64,000 nucleotides of DNA, taken from positions 32,001-96,000 of IMG/VR virus record IMGVR_UViG_3300037851_000542; one strand, written 5' to 3'. Within the stretch, counting starts at the first letter, position 1, and each line of letters begins with the position of its first letter. Shown in pieces: positions 39 through 32,175 of this stretch. The notes below the pieces were generated by a model. The model worked only from the letters and a program-made list of their open reading frames with translations, ran no database searches and was not told the DNA's origin. Position numbers and translations under genes: made by a program. Source of the stretch: a virus. Lineage: Duplodnaviria; Caudoviricetes.

Positions 39-767
39 ATGCTTAAGCATTTAATAGCTTACCATAACACTTCGAGTAAATCTTATATAAATTTTGCAGC
101 TAATTCAGCTTTGTTTAGTGGGCAACTAAACATTATTAAATACCTAGATAAATTAGGGGCAGAATACAGTTGGGATGCCTTTAAGGACGCTTGTGAGAAT
201 GGACATTTTGAAGTTATAAAGTATATAATAAATGGAGAATGTTATAGTACAGGAACTATAATTAAAGGTTTAAAAGGCTCTGTTTTAGGAAATCAATTAG
301 AAATAACCAAGTTTCTGTTAAATATTCTTTTAAACTTGCCCCCAGAAAGCTTTTATTGTGACCCTTATGATGTTATTAGTGACTGTGCTCATACAAGCAT
401 TGTCAGTCATAATGGGGATATTTTAAACTTATTGTGGAAAACTACATCTTTAAATCCGTCTACTGAGTTATTAGAGTCAGCAGTTAATTCAAGAAACCTA
501 TATGCTTTAAAACTTCTAACAAAACATAAAGCGTGGTTAACTCCAGAGCTATTAATATTCAGTATTATGTTAGATATAGCTGAACCATACCCTAATAGCC
601 CTATAACGGCGTATATTCTCAAAAATATAAATGTAAGTACTATTAAATTTGTGCACCTTACTCGTTTACTGAGAATTAAACAGCACCAACTAGTAAAAGA
701 ACTTACCGTGAATAGAGGGTGTAAAGTTAATAAACGAATAATGAAAAGATTATATTATGTTATTTAA
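39..767 (+). CDS. Ankyrin-repeat-like protein
   Basis: Ank-like segments (AFKDACENGHFEVIKYII; LLESAVNSRNLYALKLL); ends ...LYYVI. Confidence 0.6.
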   Translation: MLKHLIAYHNTSSKSYINFAANSALFSGQLNIIKYLDKLGAEYSWDAFKDACENGHFEVIKYIINGECYSTGTIIKGLKGSVLGNQLEITKFLLNILLNLPPESFYCDPYDVISDCAHTSIVSHNGDILNLLWKTTSLNPSTELLESAVNSRNLYALKLLTKHKAWLTPELLIFSIMLDIAEPYPNSPITAYILKNINVSTIKFVHLTRLLRIKQHQLVKELTVNRGCKVNKRIMKRLYYVI

Positions 768-774
768 ATTCAGC

Positions 775-801
775 TAAAGTTTATTTTAATGTGCGCCGAT
801 A
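775..801 (+). promoter_or_regulatory. sigma28-like promoter
   Basis: cTAAAgt, 16 nt, GCCGATA; upstream of ORF 845. Confidence 0.8.
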
Positions 802-844
802 GTAATATTATAGGGAAAAAGATTAACTGTTAAAAAGGACTACA

Positions 845-1027
845 ATGAGTCAAAATTTAAATAAAGAAAGCGAGCAGGCGAAAAAAGAACAAATTATTGA
901 CGATATTAATAATAGTCTGTTAGAAATTAAACAAGTAACAGGAGCAGGAATATTAAACCTTTCCCAGTTAGGATATCTTCAAGGTATTCTCAAAAGCCTT
1001 ATAACCCCTGTCGTAATTGAGGAATAA
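845..1027 (+). CDS. hypothetical protein
   Basis: ORF with AAGGA SD; overlaps next ORF. Confidence 0.6.
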   Translation: MSQNLNKESEQAKKEQIIDDINNSLLEIKQVTGAGILNLSQLGYLQGILKSLITPVVIEE

Positions 1028-1415
1028 GATGAATCAAGACTTAAACAGAGAAGAGTATTTAAAAAAGATTTCAGAGTTAGTTTTAGGAGAGCTAGTTGTA
1101 GTTAGCACTTGGGACTACTCGACTCAGCATTTTGAGGTTAGAAAAGTAGAAAAATTAACCAATAAACTAATAGTTTTAGATAATAATTTGAGATTCAACA
1201 AAGAGAATGGTAGAGTTTGGGGAGGTAACCACGGAAGAACTCCTTACTTATTGATCCTAACACCAGAGGTGGGTAATGCAGTAAGGAAATACAAGTTAAT
1301 TAGATCTGTAAAAACTAACTTGGACAAAGTAAAAAGTTTAAAACTAGATGAGCTAAGCACTGATACCCTGAGTATTTTAAAAGAAGTGCTAGAAAAGACT
1401 CTTGAGAAAAAATAA
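1017..1415 (+). CDS. hypothetical protein
   Basis: 132-aa ORF in operon-like run. Confidence 0.6.
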   Translation: MRNKMNQDLNREEYLKKISELVLGELVVVSTWDYSTQHFEVRKVEKLTNKLIVLDNNLRFNKENGRVWGGNHGRTPYLLILTPEVGNAVRKYKLIRSVKTNLDKVKSLKLDELSTDTLSILKEVLEKTLEKK

Positions 1416-1437
1416 CAATTAGTTTAAAACTTTATAT

Positions 1438-1806
1438 ATGTCTGCAGAATTAAAGAAAAAAGAAAAAGACTTTTGGACACTAGAAAAAGTCATTAGTAGT
1501 GCCCAAAATGCCCGCAACCTAGGTCACGGAATTGCTTGGTGGCACGCTAACGGTGAAGGTGCTTGTGCTTGGGCAATAAGACACGGGTACTATACCGAAA
1601 TTACTAAGATTATCTTTAAAACTAAAAAACGGCATACAAAAGCTTCGGCTTTTAAAAGTGCCAAAATTGCAGCAGATGCAGGTCTTAGAATTAGCGATTG
1701 GCGCAGAAAAGATGCTGTAGCTTATAATTGGGTAATTAATAAAGGGTATTTACCTGAAGTCAGACAAAGTATTTTTAAACTAAGTCCAGTTTATAGAAGC
1801 AAGTAG
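1438..1806 (+). CDS. Two-repeat small protein resembling homing-endonuclease-associated WT.E...AY.WA...G.L repeats
   Basis: FWTLEKV..ACAWAIRHGYY and HTKASAF..AYNWVINKGYL. Confidence 0.4.
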   Translation: MSAELKKKEKDFWTLEKVISSAQNARNLGHGIAWWHANGEGACAWAIRHGYYTEITKIIFKTKKRHTKASAFKSAKIAADAGLRISDWRRKDAVAYNWVINKGYLPEVRQSIFKLSPVYRSK

Positions 1807-1826
1807 TTTTTGAAAATTATTAATTA

Positions 1827-2612
1827 TTAATTATTAGTATCTGTATCTACCCATTCAAAACTGTACCCTTTGTAAGTTTTAGTTGTAGTTTTATTATATA
1901 ATATGCTACTCAAATAACTGAGGTTAATTTTTAATTCTCTAGCGCAGGCTGCTTTAGATTTATAGATGCGTTCTTTTTTAGTTTGTGTATGAATTGCTTT
2001 TACAGGTTTAGATATAGCAGAAACTACAGTTCTTTTATCATATAACCTTTGTTGAGAGCCTCCAGAGAATACAATATTTTTATTTTTTATATCTTTAATT
2101 TTGGAATCTATGGTTTTTTTAATTTCGGTCTCTGGGTAATCATTAGCAAAACTAAATGTTAAAAAATGCTTAAATGATTTTTGAGAACCGTACCTAACTC
2201 TTTCACATATCTTCTGAGCTTTTTCTTTTGATATTTTTAAATCTTTACTTAAAGTGGCGTAATCTTTATAAAATTTAACCTCTAATGTTCTGACATTAAG
2301 CGTAACATTTGTAAACCTTTGTAGGCGATTTTCATTATCAAACAAGGGTACAAACTGTCTTTTTACTTCTAGTTCTACTATAAACCTATCACTCTCCTTT
2401 AACACTGAGCAAATAGGCTCTAATTTAAAATTGTTTTTATTTGGGATATATTTCCTTATATATTTATATTGAGGTATAACACTTCTATGCATGTAGCATA
2501 AGTCTCTATGTTTTCTTGTTCTTGCTCTTAAGTTTGTAGTTGACCCTATATATGCTGGGGTTTCTATATTGGGTAAGAAAATTCCGTAGATGATCGCATG
2601 TTTTTTACTCAT
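1827..2612 (-). CDS. GIY-YIG homing endonuclease with C-terminal NUMOD1-like domain
   Basis: IIYGI..AYIGST..R; KPVKAIH..IYKSKAACARELKIN..YKGYSFEW. Confidence 0.75.
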   Translation of the reverse strand: MSKKHAIIYGIFLPNIETPAYIGSTTNLRARTRKHRDLCYMHRSVIPQYKYIRKYIPNKNNFKLEPICSVLKESDRFIVELEVKRQFVPLFDNENRLQRFTNVTLNVRTLEVKFYKDYATLSKDLKISKEKAQKICERVRYGSQKSFKHFLTFSFANDYPETEIKKTIDSKIKDIKNKNIVFSGGSQQRLYDKRTVVSAISKPVKAIHTQTKKERIYKSKAACARELKINLSYLSSILYNKTTTKTYKGYSFEWVDTDTNN

Positions 2613-2697
2613 TATGTTAAAATAGCATACGCCTTTTAACTAGACAAGTTTATTTAAAACCTGAAAATTAAATTTTACATTTTGCGCCCGAAAAAAC

Positions 2698-2724
2698 TTA
2701 AGTTTCTAAAGAGAAGTGCCGATA
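2698..2724 (+). promoter_or_regulatory. sigma28-like promoter (TTAA -35 variant)
   Basis: cTTAAgt, 16 nt, GCCGATA. Confidence 0.7.
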
Positions 2725-2754
2725 GAGTAATATGGAATTAACTTTTAATATGAA

Positions 2755-3087
2755 TTGGCACATATGGATTGGGATCAAATATTCTCAGAAGCTTGTGAAA
2801 CAGGAGATTTAGCCACAGTTAAAAAACTTTCAAAGGTGGTTACAAAAAGAGCACTAAAAGAGGGTTTGTGGATAAGCGCCCAAAATTACGAAGGCAACGC
2901 ACCGGAAGATCAAGAAGATCAGTTCGAAATAATTAAGTATTTAGTAGAAAAGAAAAAAATAAATGTTAAAGAGTTTGATGATGGTTTAATTAGCGGGATT
3001 GACAGTATAAAAATAGGTAGATATTTAATTGAAAAAGGTTTAAAATGTAGTTCTGCGTATCTTCTTGGGTTTTTTCACTTTATTTAA
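2755..3087 (+). CDS. Ankyrin-repeat-like protein
   Basis: FSEACETGDLATVKKL; FEIIKYLVEKKKINV; ends ...FHFI. Confidence 0.6.
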   Translation: MAHMDWDQIFSEACETGDLATVKKLSKVVTKRALKEGLWISAQNYEGNAPEDQEDQFEIIKYLVEKKKINVKEFDDGLISGIDSIKIGRYLIEKGLKCSSAYLLGFFHFI

Positions 3088-3255
3088 TTTTATGTTTTTT
3101 GGGACAACAATGAAATTAGTCAGTATCGATCTAGATGTAATGTTTCTAGAAGTAGTTCTAGAGAGAAGTAATGGAGAAATTGTAAGTATTAAGGTATTCA
3201 CAATGTTTGTTGTATTTATTATTTGTATTGTTGCGCACTTGCTGGGGTTAATGTA

Positions 3256-3702
3256 ATGAGTAGTTCTAATACTATATTTCTAGATCCTTTAGAACCTCTT
3301 GTATTCTCCAGTAACAATTATATTGTACCTAATAATGCCGAGTTTAAATTTAGAGAATACGATAAATCTGTAAAAATACTAGGAACTATAACTAAAACAT
3401 TAGTAGACTTCCGTGAAGATCGTATGAGTTTAAAAATACCTAGAGGCTGGACAACAAGAGCATCTGCAAAAGACATACATGATGCTATGGTAAAAAGTCT
3501 TATAAGTTTCGGAACATCTACCTTAACAATAAGAGCTGGTAATAAAATAGTATTCGAATGTAGTATGAAAAAACCTGGTCTTATCCATAGTTATAAGAAA
3601 CTCAAACCAACAGACAAGCAATTTCTTAAACACTTGGCAGAAGAGATAAGGAAAACTATGTTGGCTGAAGCTATAGTTACTAAAAAACTACATTTTATCT
3701 AA
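3256..3702 (+). CDS. hypothetical protein
   Basis: ATG at 3256 overlaps previous stop; ends ...LHFI. Confidence 0.55.
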   Translation: MSSSNTIFLDPLEPLVFSSNNYIVPNNAEFKFREYDKSVKILGTITKTLVDFREDRMSLKIPRGWTTRASAKDIHDAMVKSLISFGTSTLTIRAGNKIVFECSMKKPGLIHSYKKLKPTDKQFLKHLAEEIRKTMLAEAIVTKKLHFI

Positions 3703-3726
3703 AGTTATTTTAAATAGCTGTCGATA
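3700..3726 (+). promoter_or_regulatory. sigma28-like promoter
   Basis: cTAAAgt, 16 nt, GTCGATA; -35 overlaps the upstream TAA stop. Confidence 0.75.
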
Positions 3727-3769
3727 CAAGCTATAGTAGATAAACTTTATTTTAAAAAGGATTAGTATT

Positions 3770-3880
3770 ATGGTTAATTTTATAAAAGGCGTGACATTTA
3801 TTTGGATTTTTGCAGTATCTGTATACCTACTGATAACTATCTTAAATCACCTTCCATTATTTTGCTTTAAGGTAGGATAG
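3770..3880 (+). CDS. 36-aa hydrophobic peptide not in ORF track (MVNFIKGVTFIWIFAVSVYLLITILNHLPLFCFKVG)
   Basis: AAAGGA SD; follows the promoter at 3700; one TM-like stretch. Confidence 0.5.
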   Translation: MVNFIKGVTFIWIFAVSVYLLITILNHLPLFCFKVG

Positions 3881-4147
3881 TCAAATCAGGTAAAGTAAAA
3901 AACTCATATTGCTATGCCCTTTCTTCATTGCTGATGGAAAGGCATAGAATACTTGTTTTTTAGATTTACTAAATGTTATTTTAGCAATCTTGCTTTCGTT
4001 ATCCCATCGTTCTATTTTAGAAATACTATAAGAGGAAATACACAACGGACTAGAGAGATCAAAATATAAAAATTTATACTCTATAACAGTTTTGTCTTTT
4101 AAAAGACCTTCTGGGTCTATGCTTTTAAGTGCGTTTAAATAGTCCAT
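3881..4147 (-). CDS. hypothetical protein, ends LLYLI
   Basis: tightly packed minus-strand trio. Confidence 0.55.
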   Translation of the reverse strand: MDYLNALKSIDPEGLLKDKTVIEYKFLYFDLSSPLCISSYSISKIERWDNESKIAKITFSKSKKQVFYAFPSAMKKGHSNMSFLLYLI

Positions 4148-4148
4148 A

Positions 4149-4445
4149 TTAGATTAGATATAGTAATCTGTGAGGTGGGCTATTTCTTTCATTCCTAGGA
4201 TTAAATACATCCAAGTTTAATTCTGAAGGAAACATACGGTTTCTAATTGGAGAAGTATATTCAAAACTAAGTGTTTGTAGTCTGCTGCCTCCGGCATTAT
4301 AAGGTCTAATAACTATTTTTACATTCTTTATAGAAGAGTAAAGGTAGCCATCATTACCACTGCTCACGGGGGTGACTAATATATATCTACTTTTTGCATC
4401 TATTAAAGGAAAGGACTTTAAAAACGAACCGTATTGAAAAATCAT
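4149..4445 (-). CDS. hypothetical protein, ends LLYLI
   Basis: tightly packed minus-strand trio. Confidence 0.55.
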   Translation of the reverse strand: MIFQYGSFLKSFPLIDAKSRYILVTPVSSGNDGYLYSSIKNVKIVIRPYNAGGSRLQTLSFEYTSPIRNRMFPSELNLDVFNPRNERNSPPHRLLYLI

Positions 4446-4449
4446 GTGT

Positions 4450-4689
4450 TTAAATTAAATAAAAAACTTGCCAGTTCATTCCATAATTAGGTATATAAAA
4501 TATGGTTTTGTCTACGTCCTCAAACTTTTCAATAGGTACAATATCAATGTGGTTGCGATCCATTTTATAGTAAACCCTATCAAATATGTAAGCCCACTGA
4601 TCCTCCATCTTGGCTACCAGTAAAAAATGAGTACCAAGGTACCTTTCGTTAAAGGTTTTTAGAAACATATGAATTTGAATTTCTTTCAT
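4450..4689 (-). CDS. hypothetical protein, ends VFYLI
   Basis: tightly packed minus-strand trio. Confidence 0.55.
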   Translation of the reverse strand: MKEIQIHMFLKTFNERYLGTHFLLVAKMEDQWAYIFDRVYYKMDRNHIDIVPIEKFEDVDKTIFYIPNYGMNWQVFYLI

Positions 4690-4759
4690 CTATTGATCTT
4701 AACATTTAATTGTTGTAAAATCAAATCATAACAAGTCTGCACTAATTGTTCTATAATTT

Positions 4760-5254
4760 ATGACAAATTTAACACCTCAGCCCCAAAAAATACAACTACA
4801 ACAAGTATCTAAAGACGAATTAATATCCTATGTCAAATTTAACAATTTAGCTGTACTAAAAAAGGTACTAACAAGGTATAATGTTTCAGCTATAGTACCT
4901 TACCTGCATACAAGTACTTTAGCTATTTTAAAGCATTGTACTTCTAACAAACTTCTCAGTAAACCTCAGATACAAAATATACTTACTGCTGCTCTTTTTT
5001 CCAGAAATAAAAAGACTGTTTCGTATCTAAAAAGTCTAGGGTATAAGGTTGAAATTAAACACCTTCTTAATGTGATAGGTAAACTGGAGGAGTTAGATGA
5101 GAAAATTAAATCAGCCAAACTAAAATTACATCTTTACTACTCTGCAGAAGATACAATAAAATATAATAAGCAGCTAGATAAAGTTATTAACCTTAAAAAA
5201 GAATATAAAAAAACCTATTACGCTTGTTTATATACACTTTCTGAGATTTTTTAA
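4760..5254 (+). CDS. hypothetical helical protein
   Basis: 164-aa ORF. Confidence 0.55.
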   Translation: MTNLTPQPQKIQLQQVSKDELISYVKFNNLAVLKKVLTRYNVSAIVPYLHTSTLAILKHCTSNKLLSKPQIQNILTAALFSRNKKTVSYLKSLGYKVEIKHLLNVIGKLEELDEKIKSAKLKLHLYYSAEDTIKYNKQLDKVINLKKEYKKTYYACLYTLSEIF

Positions 5255-5263
5255 TAAACTAAA

Positions 5264-5731
5264 ATGTATCATACAAATTTAAAATTACTCACAGGCAAGC
5301 TACAAAAAATAAAAACAGATCATTTAAACAATACTACTGTAGACTTACCTGATGCTTGGAAACAGTACCCAGTTTTTAGAAATAAGTTTAAAAATGTAGT
5401 AGATGCTGCTATAGAAGAAATGTTATATTTAAACTCTAATATTGTTAATTCGGGCTGTAAATTAAACATGTTTGGCTATGATTCTATTAAAAGTAAACTA
5501 CTAGATCATCACTACTTGGTGTACTTTAAAATACTAAAAGACACAACCAGCATAGGGTTCCCTACACTATACTTGGAAGGTAATTCACTTACCAATGAAG
5601 TATATACCAGAATAGTGAGTAACAGCACAGAAGATGTATTACAAATGAATATAAACGATTGGGATAAAGACTCCGTAATGTTTGTATTTGAAAAGTTTGC
5701 AGAAGAGTGTTTAAATGGGTACTTGTTGTAG
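5264..5731 (+). CDS. hypothetical protein
   Basis: 155-aa ORF, TAG stop. Confidence 0.55.
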   Translation: MYHTNLKLLTGKLQKIKTDHLNNTTVDLPDAWKQYPVFRNKFKNVVDAAIEEMLYLNSNIVNSGCKLNMFGYDSIKSKLLDHHYLVYFKILKDTTSIGFPTLYLEGNSLTNEVYTRIVSNSTEDVLQMNINDWDKDSVMFVFEKFAEECLNGYLL

Positions 5732-5742
5732 GATCTAATAGA

Positions 5743-6294
5743 ATGTTTGATGCCACAGCCTGTTTTGTAATAAACCCAGATAGAGAAAAGGCTCATATTG
5801 ATAGTTTGGTTAGAGATAATAAAAGAACAGCTCTAAAATTTTATATTAAAATAAGAGCTAGTTTCGCAGTTTCGTATTGCGATAAAAGAAAAGAGGTAAT
5901 CAGGTATGGTCTTTCTGAGCTGGAAAAAACCTATAAAGCAGGCAAGAAAGTTTTTTATTATAAATTTATAACAAAATTAATAGATCATTTGATTAGGAAA
6001 GGTCTGTATAAGCCTGATATTTTTTTGTTTGATTTACTAGGTGATTTTATCTATGAATTTAAGAATAAACATTTGATGTTAAAGTTACTTGATTGCCTTG
6101 TATACTTTACACCAGATATTTCTTACATTAAAAGTCTTATGAGGACTTTAAAACTCACTTACATACCATTGCACACTGCTTGTATCTTTTGTATAAAATT
6201 TTCTATAAAAGACATTTTAGATATGCACGAGTTGTATGGTTTAAGTCTGCATATCACTAAAGGAGATTTAAGCCGTAAAGTAATTTTAGTCTAA
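5743..6294 (+). CDS. hypothetical protein, ends VILV
   Basis: ATG at 5743 after preceding stop. Confidence 0.55.
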   Translation: MFDATACFVINPDREKAHIDSLVRDNKRTALKFYIKIRASFAVSYCDKRKEVIRYGLSELEKTYKAGKKVFYYKFITKLIDHLIRKGLYKPDIFLFDLLGDFIYEFKNKHLMLKLLDCLVYFTPDISYIKSLMRTLKLTYIPLHTACIFCIKFSIKDILDMHELYGLSLHITKGDLSRKVILV

Positions 6295-6318
6295 AGTTTT
6301 ATTATACCTCTGCCGATA
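6292..6318 (+). promoter_or_regulatory. sigma28-like promoter
   Basis: cTAAAgt, 16 nt, GCCGATA; overlaps upstream TAA. Confidence 0.8.
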
Positions 6319-6349
6319 TAATATTTAGGCTAACTTTAATAGAACTAAA

Positions 6350-6568
6350 ATGGATTTAATTGTAATAGAGTATACAACCCTTGCTTCTTACTTCTGTTCA
6401 GTGGTATTATTTGGACTAGGGTTTATTGGCTTAGGTATTTATAAGCTCTTAGAGTCTAATAGTATAGCTCCTATAGTGGTACCTGTTTATTATTGTGTAG
6501 TTGCTTCTTTTGTATTTATAGAAATGTTTAGTTTTTTATTATTATTGGCAGTAAAATGGCAACTTTAG
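6350..6568 (+). CDS. small two-TM membrane protein
   Basis: two hydrophobic stretches. Confidence 0.55.
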   Translation: MDLIVIEYTTLASYFCSVVLFGLGFIGLGIYKLLESNSIAPIVVPVYYCVVASFVFIEMFSFLLLLAVKWQL

Positions 6569-6729
6569 CCCCGAAAAAAAATAAACAATCAGGTGATTCA
6601 GACATTGGAAGTATGTTTATGATACTTGTAATCATATTTATGTTTATTATTTGGTTTAGTTGGTACTTGGATGTTAGAAGAAAAAGTTGGCATAATAATG
6701 ATCAAAACAAGTTAATTATAGAAGGTTGA
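6556..6729 (+). CDS. small membrane protein truncated by IS607 insertion (…KLIIEG*; empty site would read …IIEGSKYVQS*)
   Basis: 57-aa ORF with TM segment; its stop is supplied by the IS left end. Confidence 0.5.
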   Translation: MATLAPKKNKQSGDSDIGSMFMILVIIFMFIIWFSWYLDVRRKSWHNNDQNKLIIEG

Positions 6730-6754
6730 CAAGCAGTAGTGTTTTTGCTACTAT
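6726..6754 (+). promoter_or_regulatory. sigma70 promoter at the IS left end
   Basis: TTGACA-17-TACTAT, followed by a perfect 12-bp inverted repeat (ctataccttaac/gttaaggtatag, 6751-6780). Confidence 0.7.
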
Positions 6755-6780
6755 ACCTTAACTCTAAAGTTAAGGTATAG

Positions 6781-8449: not shown

Positions 8450-8545
8450 ACCCTTTGGGAGATTCCCCCTGTTTTTATCCGGCGCAATCCGAATAAAAAT
8501 TGCAGTGTTTTCGAATGGTAACATTAGTTAACATAATTGAATCGG
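8440..8545 (+). ncRNA. probable omegaRNA scaffold at IS607 right end
   Basis: non-coding segment between tnpB end and terminal ATCGG; position expected from TnpB biology; folding not computed. Confidence 0.5.
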
Positions 8546-9576: not shown

Positions 9577-9969
9577 ATGAAAAGTAAATTAGATTTTTCA
9601 GATCTTGTAGGAGGTGTTATAATTGAAATTAAGGGTTTGCAGAGCGGATCCGATGAAATAATATTTGTCTTAAAAGACGGACGTAAACTCACAATGTACC
9701 ACGATCAAGATTGTTGTGAGAATGTTGCTGTAGAGGATTTTGAAGGCGATATATTAGATATGCTAAATACACCTATACTCAAAGCAGAAATGTCAACTAA
9801 TCAAAACGATCCTGAAGAGGACGCCGGTGATAGTTTTACTTGGACTTTCTATAAACTAGCAACAATTAAAGGATCTTTAGATATAAGATGGTATGGGACA
9901 TCAAATGGTTACTATTCTGAAGAGGTCTATTTAAAGTGGGAAATTCCTGAGTTTAAATATATTATTTAA
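9577..9969 (+). CDS. conserved phage protein (HDQDCCE..WTFY..RWYGxSNGYYSE family)
   Basis: recognisable motif string common in phages. Confidence 0.7.
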   Translation: MKSKLDFSDLVGGVIIEIKGLQSGSDEIIFVLKDGRKLTMYHDQDCCENVAVEDFEGDILDMLNTPILKAEMSTNQNDPEEDAGDSFTWTFYKLATIKGSLDIRWYGTSNGYYSEEVYLKWEIPEFKYII

Positions 9970-10019: not shown

Positions 10020-10821
10020 TATTCTATGGAAATAGTAATTTTATAAAAGGGAAGATATGGAATACCAAATTGTAAATCAAGATAATAAAAGAAGTTATAT
10101 AATTGTAACTGTAGGTAATAGTCAAGTAAAAATTACCAAAGATATAGGCGACTGGTTTACAGTAGAAAAACTAAATCCAGAAGTAACTAGTTACAATGAT
10201 TATATTTTTCTGCGTAGTGTTCCAGCAACCAGTTTTAATGAAGCTATTGAAAAAGTAAAAGAACTTCAAGAAAAATTTAGTTTGTAAACTACTAAAGGAT
10301 TAATGGAACTATACAAAGACATTGACTTTGAAGAGCTTGAAAAAAAGATTAAAAGTATAGTAAAATTAAAAGATATACACATGTTTGATCTACTGGATCA
10401 TAAGGATCTAGCCAAAGAAAATGAAGACGGTATTAGAATAGCTGTTTCACGTCTCCTACAGAAAGGAGAAATCGTATTTAAGAATGAACTGCTGTCGTCA
10501 ATTAGTAAATTTTCTCATCTTATTTAAATTAAGGGATTAAAAATATGTTACAACAACCAAAACCTGTAGTACCTATAAATGAATATTTTGGTGGATCAGA
10601 TTATATGTACGTTATTTACGTCTCAGTCGGATTTGGTCTAGTTTTAGGCTTTCTTCCTTTAATTTGTGACGGCGCAAGAAAAGAAGAAGAAGAAAGAAAA
10701 CGAAAAGTATGTTTAGACCACGGGGGCATCTTGAGTATATAGCATTATCTGATGGTACCTTTTATTGTACAGACGTAGAGTCAGAGGTTATTATTAATAT
10801 AGAAAACTTAAAACAACTAAG

Positions 10822-14487: not shown

Positions 14488-15286
14488 ATTATATGGCGTT
14501 AAAGGTTAAACAAGATTTTATTAATATACCTTATAGAGATATTGGGGCAGGACAATTTACAACTGAAAGGGTAATTTCTGTAAATGGTAATACAGTCATA
14601 GTCCACAGCTCAAATTTAGAAAACGGTAATATTAAATGTGAAATTACCAACCGTATTAAAAATGAAGTATGTTTTATTATACCTTGCACTGATGTTTTAG
14701 ATGGATATAGATTCTCTAGTATAATTTTAGTATAGTTAAAAATATGTTTGATAAATTTATTTCTATAAAACTGCCCTGTAAGTGTCTAAGTAATCCTGTT
14801 ATAGATTTTCTTACTGATACACGCACTGTTTCAGTTTTTGGTCATAAGTTTATAGTAGATAGAAGTTCATACTGGAATGGTGCTATTTTCTGCACTGCTT
14901 ATAAAAATCCTTCTAATAGTACCATTAGAGTGAAAATACCTTATAATAAAATTGTGACTAAAGTCAGTAGTGGAACTTTCATTTTAAATTTGATATAATT
15001 AAAAATATGTTTGAACAAAGAATAGAAGATATAGCTGAAATGATTTATTTTCTGGGGCACCAAGGCAAAGGTGTAACAGATATAACTGTAGCAATCAGTA
15101 ATAAATATAACCTAAATGAAACCAGTTCTATCTCTAGAATATTAGAGGAGTACTTTGATCCTAGTACTAAGCTGGGTTTACAAAAATCAGCAGAATTAAT
15201 AAATAGTGAAATAATGCTAAAGGAGTTAGAACAACATTCCGATATAATCTATGACAGTTTTAGATAGATTAAAATAGGATTATAGT

Positions 15287-25061: not shown

Positions 25062-25088
25062 TAAAGTTTTATCTTAATTGTTCCGATA
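25062..25088 (+). promoter_or_regulatory. sigma28-like promoter
   Basis: cTAAAgt, 16 nt, TCCGATA. Confidence 0.75.
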
Positions 25089-26228: not shown

Positions 26229-27634
26229 TTTTAATGTACAGTGATCAATTAGACCTTTGTGTAAAAAACATTCTTTTTTTAGAAGACCAGCTACTAAAAT
26301 TAGCTGCCAGAAAGGATCTTCCATCTTTTGTTTATGGTAGACTAGAACAACATTTAGAAATAGTTAAAGTTCAGAAAAAAAATGTAATTAGAATGAATAC
26401 TTTAATTAAACAAAACTATGAATCTGATGAGATCTTTCAATGTTCGGCTAGAATTAAAGCACTTGCTGAGATGATCAATAGAGACTGTCTAGATATAATT
26501 AACACTTTAAAAAACAAACAAAATCCTAAGGAAAGCGAAAACAATGAAAATTAAACTAACAGTAACAGATACAAAAAAACCTATGAAGTTTCAAACCAGA
26601 CAAGGGAATTTAACCTCTTTTGATAGCGACCCTGCTACTGACTACTCGCATGTTACATTTGGGTTTGAAGATGCAACACCAGTCTCAATAATTTTTAGTA
26701 TACCTGATATGCCAGTTATTTTACAGCTAAAAGATGACTTCCTTAAAGGTAAAATTGGAGGCACTTATAAAATTAATACTTCTGAAATCACAATTGTTAA
26801 AGTTAACTAGTAGAAATTTAATGGACTATACTGAAAAGAAAATATATAAAATAACTGCATCTATAAAAGCCCTTTACTCTGGAGTAGAAATATCTTACCC
26901 TCCTTATGGACACATAGTTATGTTCAAGGAAGGGGAGCCTATTACTACAAACGGTAAGACTTTTGTACTGCACGAAGATACTTTGTTTGTAAAATATATA
27001 AACAAAGAAGGGGAGATTACTTTTTCTAATTTTTATTTATTAAATATAAGTGGGTTCTTTAATTTCTTGGCAGAACTATCAGATCACGAGTTAGCTATTT
27101 ATACGGGACAAGCTATATTAAATACAAACAACTTTAAATAACTTTAACTAACCACCAAGTATTGCTATAATCTTTAAAGTTACGTATTATTTTAACCTGT
27201 TTGTTGTTTTTAAGACACATTATATAAAAATCAGCTAAAGGGTTATCTATTTTTTGGTATAACTTCTTTATGTTATATAAAGTCCCATTGCTATAGAGTT
27301 GATAATATTTATATTTTCTTACTATATCTTTATAGTCCCTTATACCTACTTCTAGGTCCCTAAAGGCGGTTTTTATATTTGGTTTTTTTAAAAGCCCCCA
27401 AATTACTTTATACTGACCGGTCGTTCTTAACTGTCTGTGCTTTGATTGGGTCTGTAAATCAAAGTACTCTACTATAACCATATAATTTTTAACATAGATA
27501 CTAATAATATCGTATATTCTGCCACCACTTAAAAAGTAATAATGTTCTGGATCAATGTTATTAAACTGAGATAGATCTCTGGGGTTTAGGTCTGGAGACC
27601 TGCTTAATAATAGATTAAAGTCCATTGTTTTACT

Positions 27635-27926: not shown

Positions 27927-28505
27927 TTGGAACAATTTCAAATGGTTAATCCAAATAATTCTAAAATTTTAGTTATTGCAGGTCCTACTGGGTCAGGTAA
28001 AACCACAATTCAGGCTGAATTACTTAAAAGAAATCCTGAATCGCTGTGTAAAATTGTAACTTGCACCAGTAGACCCTTAAGATCCAATGAAAAACAAGGG
28101 GATCCTTATTGTTTTCTTAGCCAATCAGAGTTTGAGGATAAGATAAATAATGGTGAATTTTTAGAATGGGTTAAGTATGATAATAGCTACTATGGTACCC
28201 CTAAAGATGCTTTTTTGGGCTTAATAGCTACTCCAGTAGCTATTATGGACTTAAGAGGTGTTATAGAATTAATTGAATTATACCCTGATCGTACTGAAGG
28301 AATTTTAATTTATGCTGGCTTTGAAACCCTTAAATCTAGGTTAAGTAAAAGAACAGATTCTAGTTATGATAGAGCTTCTTTACTTTTAGCAAACGAGTTA
28401 GAAGAGTTTAAGGAAGTTGAAAATATATTTACTTTGGCTTTTGATAATGATATTTATGATTTAGATCATATTTGCACTTCTATAGAGAAGAAATTTCTTC
28501 TATGA
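27927..28505 (+). CDS. gmk: Guanylate kinase
   Basis: GPTGSGKTT, TCTSRPLRSNE..G..YCF, FLEW, YYGTP. Confidence 0.9.
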   Translation: MEQFQMVNPNNSKILVIAGPTGSGKTTIQAELLKRNPESLCKIVTCTSRPLRSNEKQGDPYCFLSQSEFEDKINNGEFLEWVKYDNSYYGTPKDAFLGLIATPVAIMDLRGVIELIELYPDRTEGILIYAGFETLKSRLSKRTDSSYDRASLLLANELEEFKEVENIFTLAFDNDIYDLDHICTSIEKKFLL

Positions 28506-29218
28506 CCCGATTTAATAACACAAAGTCTTTAACCTATAAAGAATTAGAATACTTATTACAGACTCAGAAATTCTTTAGGGTACTAAACGACAAGAATAAT
28601 AAGACCTATTTTTGTGAAGTAGAGGTAATTGATAATAATATTTGTTGCTTTAATACTGTTTCAAATAGGCTCATTTATAGGTTCCCCAAGGAGGAGCTGG
28701 GTATAAAGTATAAAATAATACCAGACTCTCATTATTTAAATTTTAAAAAAATACAATCTATAGGTGCAAAGGAGCTTACTGAGTTTTTACTAGGAGCAAA
28801 AAGAAAAGGTATTATTCACATCCCTGTAACAATTTATTTTGAGTGCAAGCCAAAGATTTATAACAAATGTGCTTTTCTAGACGTTACATATAGTAGCCTT
28901 ACTGATATAACAGAAGGGGACATTGAGTTAGGATACTTAAGTCCCGATATGACAACTAGACATAATTTAAAATTAGGAGATCTAGGGACAGCTTTTAAAT
29001 TACAAATACCTAAGGATTTTGTATTCTTTTCTACTCTGGCTAGCCGTAATAGTTTGAGAACCGTGAATACATTTTCCTCTGAGGAAAGCAGAAATATACT
29101 TAAGGTTATGTATGATTTAAAGTTCGGATTAAGAGGTTACGTACTAAGTAATATACACAGTGTAAAGTTACCATACTCCTCTAGTAACTATCCTGTAAAA
29201 TTTCTCTATCTGGTTTAG
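28472..29218 (+). CDS. hypothetical protein, ends FLYLV
   Basis: long ORF. Confidence 0.55.
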   Translation: MHFYREEISSMTRFNNTKSLTYKELEYLLQTQKFFRVLNDKNNKTYFCEVEVIDNNICCFNTVSNRLIYRFPKEELGIKYKIIPDSHYLNFKKIQSIGAKELTEFLLGAKRKGIIHIPVTIYFECKPKIYNKCAFLDVTYSSLTDITEGDIELGYLSPDMTTRHNLKLGDLGTAFKLQIPKDFVFFSTLASRNSLRTVNTFSSEESRNILKVMYDLKFGLRGYVLSNIHSVKLPYSSSNYPVKFLYLV

Positions 29219-29219
29219 A

Positions 29220-29552
29220 ATGCTTACCATAGATCAATTATATAACTACTGGGCGAAGTATCAACACACTACTTTTATAACTTTAAACAATGAAAATAGA
29301 CCTTACAAAGTAAGTTCTAACCCGCTTAGAGCGCCCTGGAAATTTAAATTAAAAGGGCATTGTATTTATATTGAAGAAAGATGTTTTGTTTTTAATAAAA
29401 TAAGGCACAATATGATAGGAAATGCCCTTATAATATTAGATCATAAAACTGAAACAGACTCTATAGAAACAGTGGTTATAAAACTGCCTAGGTTTTATAA
29501 CCAAGATGCTTTAATCACTGATCCTAGGATTAAAAAAATACATTTAATTTAA
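29220..29552 (+). CDS. hypothetical protein, ends IHLI
   Basis: coupled to previous ORF. Confidence 0.55.
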   Translation: MLTIDQLYNYWAKYQHTTFITLNNENRPYKVSSNPLRAPWKFKLKGHCIYIEERCFVFNKIRHNMIGNALIILDHKTETDSIETVVIKLPRFYNQDALITDPRIKKIHLI

Positions 29553-29857
29553 AGCAAATTGTAACCATTAGGATAAAGAGAATTATACTGAGCAATAAAC
29601 TGACGCTCTTTAATTCTTACCTCTGATAAAGTTAAACCTTCTTCTAAAACTTCCATAACAAAAGATTCTTTTCCCAGAAGTCTTATGGCTGAATATAAAG
29701 GTTTATTATAATACTTATGGTGATGTGATCCATAAGCAATTGAAAAATGTGTTAATCTTCTTCTATTAGCATCATTAGTAATGCCTATATAAACTCTGTC
29801 TGGTTTATTTGTTGACCAGAGTTTGTATAGTAGATATTGTTTACCTTGACATTCCAA
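29549..29857 (-). CDS. stand-alone GIY-YIG nuclease domain
   Basis: LLYKL..VYIGIT..RR..H..E..FI..YNS..PNGYN. Confidence 0.8.
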   Translation of the reverse strand: MECQGKQYLLYKLWSTNKPDRVYIGITNDANRRRLTHFSIAYGSHHHKYYNKPLYSAIRLLGKESFVMEVLEEGLTLSEVRIKERQFIAQYNSLYPNGYNLL

Positions 29858-30276
29858 TAGTTAGTTTTCTTTATTAAGTGTGCTTTTTAATTTCTTGTAC
29901 TCTGCAAGAGAATCTCTTTTCTTAATTTCTGGAGCGGCTTTAATTTCAACATTACTAGTCTGAACTTCAATATCAAAAATATCGTTTACTTTATTCAACT
30001 CAGAAAGTACACTTCTACTGACACTTAAGGTATTCACATTAGGTTCTTCCGTGAATTCAGGTGTATGAATAGGCTCATCAGAAAAGTATAGGTTTAGTTC
30101 AAAAATTAAAGCATCTTCTGAACTATCAAACCCGATAACTTTATAGCTTTCTATACCTATGTTTTTAGACCTTAATCCTGTGGGTAAGCTGGGCGTAACT
30201 TCTGAGACCAGAAACCGCCTAAAAACGGGGGTTTCTGGTATGAATACTTTTGAAATAGGCACTGTTATAGTTTTTT

Positions 30277-31119
30277 TCATTTTAAAAAATCCTGTGCTAG
30301 GTTCCACATATCTACATTAAAGTCTATAACAAAATTTATACCTGTTGGCGTTTTAGGTTTTCTGTATTTTGTCTCATTGTTTTTAACTGTGCCTACTTCA
30401 TAATGAGGTACTAGTAAGTTCTCATGTACCCTATTATACACTTTCCAAAGTCTGTTTCCTTCATCAGCTTCTCTATGTACTTTAAGTACATCTTTTACAT
30501 TTACTACTTTATCAAGAAATCTGAGTTTTATAGCTTTTTCAGCAAACTCTCTTGTTTCAGCACTAGTAAGTATTTTACTATACATTTTATTAATTTGCAA
30601 CTTTAACAGAGGCAAATGTTCAACTAATTCTTGCATAACTTTAGGAAGATACTCGGGTTGATCTGAGTAATGTTTCATTGACCATTTAAAAATACCCCCA
30701 GCAATTACATTATGCAAACTAACTGTTCTAAAAAATCCTAGTTGTAGTGTTTGCTTAGTGGTACCGTCGTGAGCACCTGTCTGAACTATTGTAAGCTTTC
30801 CTTCTCCTTCTAGGTCAAAGCTAGTAGATCCGTGATGATATGTTGCCCTGTATTTTTGAAACCCTACCCTGTGCTGGTTTCTTTTTTGGCGGCGCTGTTC
30901 TTGGTACTGTTGAATCTTCCATCCTCTTGTATTTAGATTTTCAATAACTGAGATATCGTCAGTTTTTCTAAACTTAGAAGTAGTACTTTGTGGATCTCTT
31001 TCAGTAATTATTATGGCGCTTTTTGGTAACAAAATTTCATTGTTTAAGAGGGCTTTAAGTTGTCTTTCAGACAATCTAGATTCTTTTTTTACTGGGACAG
31101 TTGCTATAGAAGGTTGCAT
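30277..31119 (-). CDS. DUF932/DUF945-like protein
   Basis: GAHDGT..LQLGFFRTVSLHNVIAG; R..D.GN.LWKVYNRVHENL; start placed at 31119 because the promoter lies at 31171-31197. Confidence 0.7.
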   Translation of the reverse strand: MQPSIATVPVKKESRLSERQLKALLNNEILLPKSAIIITERDPQSTTSKFRKTDDISVIENLNTRGWKIQQYQEQRRQKRNQHRVGFQKYRATYHHGSTSFDLEGEGKLTIVQTGAHDGTTKQTLQLGFFRTVSLHNVIAGGIFKWSMKHYSDQPEYLPKVMQELVEHLPLLKLQINKMYSKILTSAETREFAEKAIKLRFLDKVVNVKDVLKVHREADEGNRLWKVYNRVHENLLVPHYEVGTVKNNETKYRKPKTPTGINFVIDFNVDMWNLAQDFLK

Positions 31120-31170
31120 AGAAGTTTCCAATATGTTAAAATTAAAAAGTAAAATATCTTCTATTAAGTA

Positions 31171-31197
31171 TATCGACACCGAATACAAATAACTTTA
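31171..31197 (-). promoter_or_regulatory. sigma28-like promoter
   Basis: minus strand cTAAAgt, 16 nt, GTCGATA. Confidence 0.75.
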
Positions 31198-31632
31198 GAC
31201 TATAATTAACTCCATGTCATATTTTTTTATTTATTTACTAGGTTGCTTTGCTTCTGGTCTGTTAGTACCTTGCACGACAAAGATACTAGAATCTCCACCA
31301 TCGGTACTAGAGTTCATTATTACTATAGTAGCCTCTTGGATAGGTGTTGTGTTACAGATAGGGCTTATTATAGTTTTTATACTGCTTTATTTTTTGACCT
31401 AATCTACTATTCTAATATAATTTCAAATACTAGATTATCCTTTACAATAGAGGATTTTATAGATTTCAGGTTATAGTACCTTTTATAATTTAAAAAAGAC
31501 TTTCCTGCTAAAAATTCTTCTAGTACTTCTTGAGGATCAGTCTTTTTATAATTACAAGGTAGATGCATAAACTCCAACTTAGAGTTTATGTAGAACTTAT
31601 AGTGAATGTCTGAGTCAAAGTTTGTCATATAG

Positions 31633-32175
31633 TTAAATTAAAAATACTCTATCGGGAGCAGTCCATAATCTCTGTTCCTGTGTTAAGGTATAATCCTCAA
31701 ACTTCTCATCGCCTTTAAATAAAAATAGATACTTAAAATCCTTACTGGGGCTGTAAGTGTAAACTTTATTAGTGTCTAAATCGAGGTAATAGGCAAAACG
31801 TTTATTGCTAAACAAATACACATAATTTTCTAATCTAATTTGCCCTACTGCTAAGCGTGGATTCCTATTACTGGTATGGTTTGAATAGGGAATAGGCTGC
31901 CATTTACCTTCTTCAATGTATCTTAAAACCTGTTTAAAAGATAGTGGACCAAAGCTTGACCTTGACCCCCAATAAGAAGTATTTGAACTATAAGTGTGTA
32001 ACATTGCATAAGAAGAATTTTCGAACTTTTTACTAGTATACCAGACAAGATCTATATTACTATCGGCAAAGTAAAATGTTTTATCCTTAGCAATAAATAA
32101 CATAAAACATTCAAACAAAAGTTTTAATAATGAAATAAGCATTATAGTTATGTATGACGCTATAACGAATTTCAA
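31633..32175 (-). CDS. hypothetical membrane-anchored protein, ends RVFLI
   Basis: N-terminal TM. Confidence 0.55.
   Translation of the reverse strand: MKFVIASYITIMLISLLKLLFECFMLFIAKDKTFYFADSNIDLVWYTSKKFENSSYAMLHTYSSNTSYWGSRSSFGPLSFKQVLRYIEEGKWQPIPYSNHTSNRNPRLAVGQIRLENYVYLFSNKRFAYYLDLDTNKVYTYSPSKDFKYLFLFKGDEKFEDYTLTQEQRLWTAPDRVFLI

What the first reader, a model, noticed from the sequence alone, without database searches (positions are those of the whole stretch)
39..32175. Shared hydrophobic C-terminal tag ([YH]-[LFIV]-[IV]-stop) on about 15 unrelated proteins
Seen C-termini: YYVI (39), FHFI (2755), LHFI (3256), LYLI (3881), LYLI (4149), FYLI (4450), VILV (5743), KYII (9577), SHLI (10303), IILV (14493), LNLI (14744), VKVI (27134), LYLV (28472), IHLI (29220), VFLI (31633), plus near-misses GYLL (5264) and NYI (22711). 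Ten of the 15 have Y or H at position -3. The proteins are otherwise dissimilar, lie on both strands, and use different codons (tac-ctg-att-tga, tat-cta-atc-taa, tat-tta-att-taa), so the conservation appears to be at the protein level. Inference: a common terminal signal such as a degron, a PDZ-protease ligand, a capsid-packaging/ejection tag or a translocation signal. I do not recognise this as described.
Basis: partly seen in the sequence, partly recalled or inferred. Interest (0 to 1): 0.8.

Follow-up and report, generated by a model that had tools for sequence, protein, structure and literature searches.

The report
Shared hydrophobic C-terminal tail, huge phage
About one protein in six of this uncultured 260-kb freshwater phage, mostly tiny unrelated accessory proteins but also members of known folds, ends in the same five hydrophobic residues (typically F/Y-Y-L/F-I-stop); this ending is selected at the protein level, I found no published description of it, and it most likely gives all these proteins one common handle or fate.

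Summary
All 17 listed endings are present (the coordinates are the ORFs' low ends). Eleven window proteins carry a statistically robust tail; VILV, IILV, VKVI, VFLI, GYLL and NYI do not stand out individually.

Genome-wide (259,994 bp, one contig):
- 50 of 377 ORFs end in [YH][LFIVM][IV], against about 1 expected from internal peptide frequency and 2.3 from non-gene stop triplets.
- A leave-one-out PSSM flags 66 ORFs (1.9 expected).

Conservation has codon periodicity, stops at the stop codon, and uses synonymous codons and all three stops, so the peptide is what is selected. Carriers fall into 63 sequence clusters and include ankyrin, DUF7448 and cupin folds. Of 120 DUF7448 homologues, only this phage and a 78%-identical relative have the tail. 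Two diverged relatives also carry it.

Carriers are soluble, small, and packed in operon-like arrays at the genome ends.

Function is unproven. My best reading (0.45) is a portable docking or degron-like strand read by one cytoplasmic partner, possibly the phage's own ClpP plus ClpC-like unfoldase. The main rival (0.3) is a purely structural terminal strand of fast-evolving mini-proteins.

This scan has noted analogous shared tails, with different sequences, in other large phages.

The parts
39..767 (+). Ankyrin-family protein ending ...RLYYVI-stop. The ORF may start upstream of the window.
   Evidence: Tail seen. PSSM 10.4 bits. Weak Ank/DUF3447 hits. Member of a 9-member paralogue cluster in which 4 carry the tail.
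2755..3087 (+). 110-aa paralogue of the ankyrin cluster ending ...GFFHFI-stop
   Evidence: PSSM 11.2.
3223..3702 (+). 159-aa ORFan (148 aa from the ATG at 3256) ending ...KKLHFI-stop
   Evidence: PSSM 9.2.
3881..4147 (-). 88-aa ORFan ending ...FLLYLI-stop (TGA). First of three tandem carriers.
   Evidence: PSSM 7.3.
4149..4445 (-). 98-aa ORFan ending ...RLLYLI-stop (TAA)
   Evidence: PSSM 11.6.
4450..4689 (-). 79-aa ORFan ending ...QVFYLI-stop
   Evidence: PSSM 11.9.
9577..9969 (+). DUF7448 protein with a lineage-specific 10-residue extension ending ...EFKYII-stop
   Evidence: Pfam E 3.6e-29. Of 120 homologues only this protein and P0002 (78% identical) carry the extension. In the AF2 model the fold ends at strand 118-122 and residues 123-130 are coil. 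PSSM 6.8.
10303..10527 (+). 74-aa ORFan ending ...KFSHLI-stop
   Evidence: PSSM 6.9.
14744..14998 (+). 84-aa ORFan ending ...FILNLI-stop. Marginal carrier.
   Evidence: PSSM 2.3, just above the 99.5% null quantile.
28472..29218 (+). 248-aa ORFan ending ...KFLYLV-stop (TAG)
   Evidence: PSSM 9.9. No homologue among 5.8 billion proteins.
29220..29552 (+). 110-aa protein ending ...KKIHLI-stop. Its orthologue in a relative ends ...RKIYLI-stop.
   Evidence: The two are 26% identical over the first 61 residues and the rest is unalignable. The K-I-[HY]-L-I ending is kept, with two synonymous codon changes and a different stop.
5707..6294 (+). Not supported as a carrier on its own.
   Evidence: PSSM -5.1.
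14493..14735 (+). Not supported individually.
   Evidence: PSSM -8.6.
27134..27625 (-). Not supported individually.
   Evidence: PSSM -3.1.
31633..32175 (-). Not supported individually.
   Evidence: PSSM -4.8.
55387..57228 (+). Single-ring ClpC/ClpB-D2-like AAA+ unfoldase with a novel 285-residue N-terminal region. Candidate reader of the tail, by inference only.
   Evidence: AAA_2 E 9e-31. Best PDB match is ClpC D2, E 4e-46, with the pore loop GAPPSYVG and an AGF tripeptide aligned to the ClpP-docking loop of ClpC. The AGF loop is invariant in two relatives. Its likely partner is a canonical ClpP at genome 135445-135987, minus strand, outside the window.

Best explanation
The ending [I/L/F]-[F/Y/L/W]-[Y/H]-[L/F]-[I/V]-COOH is a portable C-terminal peptide module maintained by selection in this phage lineage. 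It usually follows a polar D/K. It sits on about 55-66 soluble, mostly 46-110-residue accessory proteins that lie in long co-directional operons at the genome ends. It has also been added to unrelated folds: DUF7448, ankyrin-repeat proteins and two larger ORFan lineages.

I think it most likely acts as a common handle. It would be a short hydrophobic beta-strand with a free carboxylate that docks on one shared cytoplasmic partner, so that the whole accessory proteome is treated as one group.

The most concrete candidate partner is the phage's own Clp machine, a canonical ClpP plus a single-ring ClpC-like unfoldase with a novel N-domain. The tail would then be either a degron that limits the lifetime of these proteins, or an adaptor-docking tail like the C-terminal ClpX-binding peptide of SspB.

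Shown: existence, enrichment, peptide-level selection, modularity, conservation in relatives, cytoplasmic character and clustering.
Inferred: that a reader exists at all, its identity, and the outcome of the interaction.
For: - Enrichment is 51-fold over internal frequency and 22-fold over non-gene stop contexts. The PSSM flags 66 of 377 against 1.9 expected.
- Nucleotide information in the last five codons is 0.74 / 0.99 / 0.37 bits at codon positions 1 / 2 / 3 and falls to 0.08 after the stop. Synonymous codons follow genome usage and all three stops are used.
- Carriers form 63 clusters after the tail is trimmed. Pfam finds ankyrin, DUF7448 and cupin among them.
- The DUF7448 tail is a lineage-specific add-on: 2 of 120 homologues have it. 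It is modelled outside the fold.
- 6 of 219 proteins of at least 108 aa have tails above the 99.9% null quantile (0.22 expected, p 1e-7).
- Relatives with 39-58% identical core proteins carry the tail on an orthologue whose body has diverged to 26% identity, and on a gene absent here.
- Position rules are strict. The last residue is I (58) or V (8) and never L, although L is the commonest residue. Position -3 is Y (43), I (11) or H (7), and F only 4 times. This looks like a pocket rather than generic hydrophobicity.
- Carriers lack TM or signal segments: 1 of 66 against 24 of 139, p 5e-4.
- The phage encodes ClpP (E 3e-68) and an unfoldase with an intact Walker A/B, pore loop and AGF loop.
- Established knowledge: SspB tethers to the ClpX N-domain through a short C-terminal segment (bioRxiv 10.1101/2022.11.06.515074). 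Lon degrons such as those of SulA and Y2853 are hydrophobic/aromatic C-terminal peptides (PMC8138137).
Against: - No reader has been identified, and nothing links the Clp genes to the tail beyond their being in the same genome.
- In the one carrier family that could be modelled (8 mini-proteins), the tail is the third strand of a beta-beta-alpha-beta fold (mean pLDDT 81). It may therefore be buried rather than free.
- 16 of 66 carriers also share an N-terminal M-(x)-Y-[LF] motif. This fits a structural clasp as well as it fits a tag.
- The tail does not resemble known ClpX, ClpA or ClpC degrons such as LAA.
- Only three fragmentary relatives were found, so co-occurrence with any candidate reader cannot be tested.
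Confidence: 0.45

Rival explanations
1. The tail is purely structural. The array genes would be one very fast-evolving superfamily of beta-rich mini-proteins in which only the terminal strands stay recognisable, because they close the fold or mediate self-association. These are N-terminal M-x-Y-L-hydrophobic and C-terminal hydrophobic-Y-L-I. No common reader exists, and tails on larger proteins come from occasional fusions with array genes.
For: - The AF2 model of the 8-member mini-protein family places residues 42-47 (the tail) as strand 3 next to an N-terminal hairpin.
- The N-terminal motif occurs in 16 of 66 carriers against 4 of 139 small non-carriers (p 5e-6).
- 45 of 50 strict carriers are at most 130 aa.
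- Carriers sit in tandem arrays typical of duplication and divergence. One run of 29 consecutive genes all end in the tail or a near variant.
Against: - Profile searches with tails trimmed do not connect the carriers: 63 clusters.
- The tail is an add-on outside the conserved DUF7448 fold and is kept identical in a 78%-identical relative.
- 6 of 219 larger proteins carry it, from four independent lineages.
- All five positions are hydrophobic, on both faces of a strand. In a single-sheet mini-protein this would leave an exposed hydrophobic face.
- The last residue is strictly I/V at the free carboxylate.
Confidence: 0.3
2. The tail is a capsid-packaging or ejection tag. It would dock small anti-host proteins inside the prohead so that they are injected with the DNA, as the capsid targeting sequence of the T4 internal proteins does.
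For: - Many carriers are small, basic (median pI 8.7) accessory proteins of the kind phages co-inject.
- The phage ClpP gene lies in the large minus-strand block that holds very large proteins. ClpP-family enzymes serve as prohead proteases in some phages (own knowledge).
Against: - The T4 signal is N-terminal and is cleaved off.
- Sixty different cargo species would be unprecedented.
- Carriers sit with enzymes typical of early or accessory regions (RtcB, DNA methylase, pyrimidine-dimer glycosylase, GMP reductase), not in the structural block. Only 5 carriers lie between 50 and 240 kb.
- There are no proteomic data.
Confidence: 0.1
3. The tail is a peripheral membrane anchor. The aromatic and aliphatic residues (W/F/Y/L/I) would partition into the membrane interface and concentrate the carriers at the inner membrane.
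For: Tails such as WWWYFI, DWWYFI and YWLYFI consist of the residues with the highest interfacial hydrophobicity (own knowledge of the Wimley-White scale).
Against: - Five residues with a charged carboxylate make a weak anchor.
- Generic partitioning does not explain Y/H at -3 with F and W nearly excluded, or I/V but never L at the last position.
- Known bacterial membrane-targeting sequences are amphipathic helices of 8-12 residues (own knowledge).
Confidence: 0.05
4. The pattern is an artefact of AT-rich codon use before stop codons, or a nucleic-acid signal (terminator, ribosome-binding or recombination site) that happens to be translated.
For: - The genome is 33% G+C.
- The commonest tail codons are AT-rich.
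- Carrier genes are tightly packed in operons.
Against: - Only 2.3 tails are expected from 26,479 non-gene stop contexts, against 50 seen.
- Conservation has 3-nt periodicity, is lowest at wobble positions and vanishes right after the stop.
- Five of the six Leu codons, both Tyr codons, all three Ile codons and all three stops are used in genome-like proportions.
- Tails also occur on genes that end an operon or face a gene on the other strand.
Confidence: 0.01

Closest known systems
C-terminal degrons and adaptor tails of bacterial AAA+ proteases (ssrA tag ...YALAA; Lon degrons of SulA ...SNLYH and Y2853 ...YPIIH; SspB C-terminal ClpX-binding peptide)
   Same: A short peptide at the extreme C-terminus, rich in hydrophobic or aromatic residues, portable between unrelated proteins and read in the cytoplasm. 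The phage has its own ClpP and unfoldase.
   Different: The sequence differs: there is no LAA-type ending. It is encoded in 50-66 genes rather than added by tmRNA or present on a few substrates. No evidence of degradation or of binding.
Class II PDZ ligands (hydrophobic-x-hydrophobic-COOH, e.g. neurexin EYYV, syndecan EFYA; PMC2133028)
   Same: Strongly similar at the sequence level: aromatic residues at -2/-3 and an aliphatic residue bearing the free carboxylate (YYVI, FYLI, YYFI). Recognition by beta-strand addition would suit this tail.
   Different: No PDZ domain is detectable in the phage. Bacterial PDZ proteases are mostly extracytoplasmic (own knowledge), whereas carriers have no export signal.
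Capsid targeting sequence of T4 internal proteins (IPI-III, Alt)
   Same: One short shared peptide directs several unrelated small phage proteins to one destination.
   Different: The T4 signal is N-terminal, is removed by the prohead protease and marks a handful of proteins (own knowledge). Here the peptide is C-terminal and marks dozens.
Sliding-clamp-binding C-terminal tails (T4 gp43/gp33/gp55 ...LDFL[FY]x; bacterial QL[SD]LF)
   Same: A hydrophobic C-terminal tail, preceded by an acidic residue, shared by proteins that dock on one hub.
   Different: No conserved Gln and a different register. No clamp gene was detected in the phage with DNA_pol3_beta_3 or DNA_PPF. The number of carriers is far beyond any replisome.
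HbYX motif of proteasomal ATPases and the HslU C-terminal tail (...SRFIL), which insert into pockets of the protease
   Same: A hydrophobic-Tyr-containing extreme C-terminus that plugs into a pocket of a self-compartmentalised protease (own knowledge).
   Different: In HbYX the Tyr is penultimate, whereas here it is at -3. Those tails belong to the ATPase itself, not to dozens of small proteins.
Poxvirus ankyrin-repeat proteins with a C-terminal PRANC/F-box-like domain
   Same: A viral multigene set with variable target-binding bodies, some of them ankyrin repeats, and one shared C-terminal element that plugs them into a degradation machine.
   Different: PRANC is a folded domain of about 50 residues that binds eukaryotic Skp1. 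Here the element is a pentapeptide in a bacterial virus.

Membership tests
ssrA-like / non-polar C-terminal degron of AAA+ proteases | Located at the extreme C-terminus with a free carboxylate | tested here: met
   The motif is 51- to 377-fold enriched at the last positions relative to internal positions. Conservation ends at the stop codon.
ssrA-like / non-polar C-terminal degron of AAA+ proteases | Sequence of the known classes (e.g. ...LAA for ClpX/ClpA) | tested here: not met
   The last three residues are [YH][LF][IV]. No carrier ends in an Ala-rich tail.
ssrA-like / non-polar C-terminal degron of AAA+ proteases | Transferable destabilisation that depends on a AAA+ protease | not testable with these tools
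   Needs reporter half-life measurements with and without ClpP/unfoldase.
Adaptor docking tail (SspB XB type) | The C-terminal peptide binds the N-domain of the unfoldase | tested here: inconclusive
   One structure-prediction job of the unfoldase N-region with a carrier gave no verdict, because both chains folded with low confidence. This counts neither for nor against.
PDZ class II ligand | Hydrophobic-x-hydrophobic-COOH consensus | tested here: met
   Position -1 is I/V in 66 of 66 carriers. Position -3 is Y/H/I in 61 of 68.
PDZ class II ligand | A PDZ-domain reader in the same compartment | tested here: not met
   The phage has no PDZ, PDZ_2 or PDZ_6 match. Carriers lack export signals. 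The host is unknown, so host PDZ proteins could not be examined.
T4-type capsid targeting sequence | N-terminal position and removal by the prohead protease | tested here: not met
   The shared element is C-terminal. Cleavage could not be assessed.
Sliding-clamp-binding tail | Consensus QL[SD]LF or T4-type LDFL[FY], and a clamp partner | tested here: not met
   There is no conserved Q, and Tyr at -3 is not part of these motifs. The phage has no DNA_pol3_beta_3 or DNA_PPF match.
HbYX motif | Hydrophobic-Tyr-X at the last three positions (Tyr penultimate) | tested here: not met
   Tyr is at -3 in 43 of 68 carriers. The penultimate residue is L/F.
Single paralogous protein family | Detectable homology outside the shared tail | tested here: not met
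   BLASTP and iterative HMM searches with tails trimmed give 63 clusters. Small subfamilies do exist: 8 mini-proteins, a 9-member ankyrin cluster and two pairs.

The most novel reading that the evidence does not exclude
Large phages may run a proteome-addressing system. A lineage-specific C-terminal peptide (here hydrophobic-Y-L/F-I) would mark the fast-evolving accessory and host-takeover proteins as one class. A dedicated reader, here possibly the phage's own ClpP/ClpC-like protease, would then either clear them on schedule or use them as interchangeable adaptors that deliver host targets for destruction. A variant reading is that the C-terminal strand and the matching N-terminal M-x-Y-L strand let carriers co-assemble by strand exchange.
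Probability: 0.3. Interest if true: 0.85.

Novelty: new variant of a known kind. Interest (0 to 1): 0.72.

Why it matters
Most genes of huge phages are small ORFans with no handle for experiments. A peptide shared by one sixth of the proteome is such a handle. One pull-down with the tail peptide could identify the machine that deals with the whole accessory gene set. The tail itself also predicts which unknown genes belong to that set.

It would also yield a compact five-residue tag for controlling protein fate.

Other first-stage and follow-up notes of this scan describe different shared tails in other large phages. This may therefore be one instance of a general, undescribed organising principle.

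Tried and rejected
- Megablast of the window against GenBank phages: no match.
- The search for related loci in IMG/VR with the 248-aa carrier and with the unfoldase: no relatives.
- The 248-aa carrier has no homologue in the 5.8-billion-protein set.
All were chance matches in AT-rich DNA with no carrier arrays, so more relatives may exist beyond the limit.
- A GH19-endolysin alignment as an anchor found only unrelated phages without tails.
- RtcB as an anchor inside a carrier array: the nearest homologues are a 60%-GC bacterium and unrelated contigs.
- Complex prediction of the unfoldase N-region (1-285) with an 84-aa carrier: no verdict, both chains poorly folded.
- Fold searches of the mini-protein model against PDB and BFVD: nothing at E <= 0.001.
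- ESM Atlas look-up of the unfoldase N-region: no usable hit.
- Sequencing runs: two freshwater DNA runs, which may be the source sample, and no RNA holder listed.
- tRNA/tmRNA scan of the whole genome: none, so there is no phage tmRNA that could add such a tag.
- Phage MoxR, PDZ, S41, Lon and clamp readers: not found.
- A sigma-70 promoter scan of array 1 gave no more hits than shuffles.
- Stop-codon recoding to explain the ORF ends was considered and rejected. All three stops terminate carriers, and table 11 gives 92% coding density.

Full report
**Context**

The window is bases 32001-96000 of a single 259,994-bp contig (32.9% G+C). It is an IMG/VR virus record rated 95% complete. Near-identical DNA occurs in two freshwater metagenome runs, which may be the source sample.

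The window encodes:
- an RF1-type release factor, a TnpB, a RuvB-like ATPase and an RNA ligase;
- ribosomal protein uS2, histidine kinases, a Dam methylase and tail fibres with S74 chaperone domains;
- a Clp-family ATPase.

Elsewhere the genome has a Pol I-type polymerase, primase, DnaB, a UvsX-like recombinase, ribonucleotide reductase, RtcB and a canonical ClpP. Structural proteins have no PHROG match and no GenBank phage is similar. This is a deeply divergent jumbo phage of unknown host.

**Checking the observation**

Read that way, every quoted C-terminus is present.

I extended the count to the whole genome with a greedy longest-ORF gene call (377 ORFs, 92% of the DNA). This gives 50 ORFs ending in [YH][LFIVM][IV] and 68 with a looser hydrophobic version. 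Three nulls were used:
- The same tripeptide at internal positions predicts 0.98 C-terminal cases (51-fold enrichment, p 1e-67). The four-residue core predicts 0.11 against 40 seen.
- The 26,479 stop triplets that are not gene ends, on both strands and in all frames, predict 2.3.
- 1,033 ORFs from 125 unrelated, mostly AT-rich loci fetched by chance DNA matches show 1.5%.

A six-residue PSSM scored leave-one-out gives a bimodal distribution. 66 C-termini lie above the 99.5% quantile of internal hexamers (1.9 expected) and 53 above 99.9% (0.4 expected).

In the window itself 11 ORFs pass.

**Peptide or nucleotide signal?**

In the 53 best carriers the information content of the last five codons is 0.74, 0.99 and 0.37 bits at codon positions 1, 2 and 3. 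It drops to 0.08 bits immediately after the stop. Non-carriers show about 0.03-0.09 throughout.

Leu is written with five of its six codons, Tyr with both and Ile with all three, in roughly genome-wide proportions. TAA, TGA and TAG all terminate carriers. The signal is therefore in the peptide.

**The motif**

The consensus is a polar residue (D/K) followed by five hydrophobic or aromatic residues:

| Position | Residues (counts) |
|---|---|
| -5 | I/L/F |
| -4 | Y/F/L/W |
| -3 | Y (43), I (11), H (7), F (4) |
| -2 | L (40), F (20) |
| -1 | I (58), V (8) |

The last residue is never Leu, although Leu is the most frequent residue in the proteome. Upstream of -6 there is no general conservation. 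The first array has an extra aromatic residue at -8.

**Who carries it**

- Carriers are short (median 88 aa, against 150 for the rest), basic (median pI 8.7) and soluble. One of 66 has a TM-like segment, against 24 of 139 small non-carriers (p 5e-4).
- They are concentrated at the contig ends: 24 of 31 genes in 0-10 kb, 19 of 29 in 250-260 kb, 15 of 62 in 20-50 kb, and only 5 between 50 and 240 kb.
- One run of 29 consecutive minus-strand genes (224-8830) all end in the tail or a near variant.
- The arrays are long operon-like units. They are headed by a promoter-like motif, TAAAG-N16-xCCGATA, that also precedes many non-carrier genes individually. I could not assign carriers to a separate temporal class.
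- Non-carrier genes inside the arrays are enzymes typical of accessory regions: RtcB, GMP reductase, a DNA methylase and a pyrimidine-dimer glycosylase.

**Are the carriers one family?**

BLASTP at 1e-3, and iterative HMM searches with the last six residues removed at 1e-3 or 0.02, both leave 63 clusters among 68 carriers.

Pfam recognises only two strong ankyrin-repeat proteins, one DUF7448 and one cupin.

The DUF7448 case is the cleanest test of modularity. The family is widespread in phages. In 118 of 120 homologues the protein stops a few variable residues after the conserved ...SNGYYSE.V.F strand. Only this phage and a 78%-identical metagenomic relative continue with the same ten residues ending EFKYII. 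An AlphaFold model built from 73 sequences (mean pLDDT 84) ends the fold at strand 118-122 and leaves residues 123-130 as coil.

Among the 219 proteins of at least 108 aa, six have tails above the 99.9% null quantile (0.22 expected, p 1e-7). They come from four independent lineages.

**Relatives**

The lineage is rare. The unfoldase N-region retrieved two relatives. One is a 21.6-kb contig syntenic with window 15-57 kb, with core proteins 39-58% identical. The other is a 4.6-kb contig.
- The first contig holds a 119-aa orthologue of window ORF 29220-29552. The pair is 26% identical over the first 61 residues and unalignable afterwards. Both end K-I-[H/Y]-L-I, with two synonymous changes and a different stop codon.
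- The second contig has a 95-aa ORF ending KYIYLI next to the unfoldase gene. This ORF has no counterpart here.

The tail is thus conserved across the clade while bodies turn over.

**A complication**

Sixteen of 66 carriers also begin with M-(x)-Y-[LF], against 4 of 139 small non-carriers (p 5e-6). Eight 46-71-residue proteins at 253.9-255.5 kb align as one family, with M-x-Y-L-I-K at the start and WYYFI at the end.

Their AlphaFold model (mean pLDDT 81 from only eight sequences) is beta-beta-alpha-beta with the tail as the third strand. I could not inspect strand pairing.

In at least this family the tail may therefore be part of the fold. This is the basis of the main rival explanation. All five tail positions are hydrophobic, which in a single-sheet mini-protein would still leave a hydrophobic face exposed.

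**Candidate readers**

The phage has no PDZ, S41, Lon, MoxR or clamp domain detectable with the Pfam models tried, and no tmRNA.

It does encode two relevant proteins:
- A canonical ClpP (E 3e-68, full length) next to a PIN-PhoH gene.
- A 613-residue unfoldase in the window. Residues 286-600 match the D2 ring of ClpC, ClpB and ClpA (E 4e-46). It has Walker A and B motifs, the GAPPSYVG pore loop, and an AGF tripeptide aligned with the loop that docks ClpC on ClpP. That loop is invariant in both relatives.

Residues 1-285 have no recognisable relatives outside the clade. This makes a phage-owned protease with an unexplored substrate-recognition domain.

It is a natural candidate reader, but nothing ties it to the tail. 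One complex prediction gave no verdict.

**Comparison with known systems**

- The tail looks most like class II PDZ ligands (EYYV, EFYA; PMC2133028), but no PDZ reader is in sight and carriers are cytoplasmic.
- Functionally it is closest to C-terminal degrons and adaptor tails of AAA+ proteases (PMC8138137; bioRxiv 10.1101/2022.11.06.515074), but its sequence fits none of the known classes.
- It fails the defining features of the T4 capsid targeting sequence, clamp-binding tails and the HbYX motif (see the membership table).
- Full-text searches for shared C-terminal motifs on phage small proteins and for phage Clp systems found no description.
- A 2025 paper on large freshwater 'moraphages' lists a ClpA-like ATPase, PhoH and Pol I among its core genes (PMC12619734). 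This phage may belong near that group. I did not test this.

**Verdict**

The interpretation as a common terminal signal is partly supported.

I put 0.45 on a docking or degron-like tag read by one cytoplasmic partner; the phage Clp system as that partner is about 0.2 of this. I put 0.3 on a purely structural terminal strand, 0.1 on a packaging tag, 0.05 on a membrane anchor and 0.01 on an artefact.

Earlier notes of this scan report analogous but different shared tails in other large phages. I treat those as leads, not as evidence.

Noticed in passing
genome-wide; in the window e.g. 775-801, 6292-6318, 12070-12096, 14169-14195, 15218-15244, 19032-19058, 19888-19914, 20778-20804, 25062-25088 (+), 58123-58149 (-): A promoter-like motif, TAAAG-N16-xCCGATA (sigma-28/FliA-like), occurs 40 times exactly, mostly 28-53 nt upstream of start codons. 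It is dense at genome 9-25 kb (minus strand) and 28-57 kb (plus strand). Carrier arrays have it only at operon heads: 4 of 66 carriers against 29 of 139 small non-carriers have one directly upstream.
   Followed up: partly
window 10822-11907 (+): Phage-encoded class-I release factor of RF1 type (PVT anticodon-like motif at residue 187, GGQ at 231). All three stop codons nevertheless end ORFs under table 11.
   Followed up: partly
window 55387-57228 (+) and genome 135445-135987 (-): The phage has its own Clp system: a canonical ClpP plus a single-ring ClpC-D2-like unfoldase with an AGF loop and a novel 285-residue N-region. The N-region contains an invariant internal SFLYLN segment that resembles the tail.
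   Followed up: partly
genome 253946-255514 (-), loci L010:17949-19514: A family of eight 46-71-residue mini-proteins with conserved M-x-Y-L-I-K starts and WYYFI ends, modelled as beta-beta-alpha-beta (mean pLDDT 81). More widely, a quarter of all carriers share the N-terminal M-(x)-Y-[LF] motif.
   Followed up: partly
L016 (IMGVR_UViG_3300035183_000373), 494-6412: An unrelated AT-rich phage contig, hit by chance, has a run of small co-directional ORFs. Several end in ...GNK, ...GNKQ or ...NGNK. This may be another shared C-terminal tail.
   Followed up: no
window 6824-8449 (+); genome 82652-83128 (-) and 239176-240312 (+): Three TnpB/Cas12f-like (OrfB_IS605) copies or fragments lie in the phage genome. 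One sits among carrier genes.
   Followed up: no
genome 251411-252763 (-), L010:15414-16763: An RtcB RNA ligase sits inside a carrier array. Its closest homologue (54% identity) is in a 60%-GC bacterial chromosome next to rplU-rpmA-obg, so it gives no clue to the host of this 33%-GC phage.
   Followed up: partly
window 35368-36297 (+) and L141:7006-7962: The phage uS2 gene is conserved (47% identity) and syntenic in the 21.6-kb relative. The two-kinase/response-regulator cassette and the S74 tail fibre are conserved there too.
   Followed up: no
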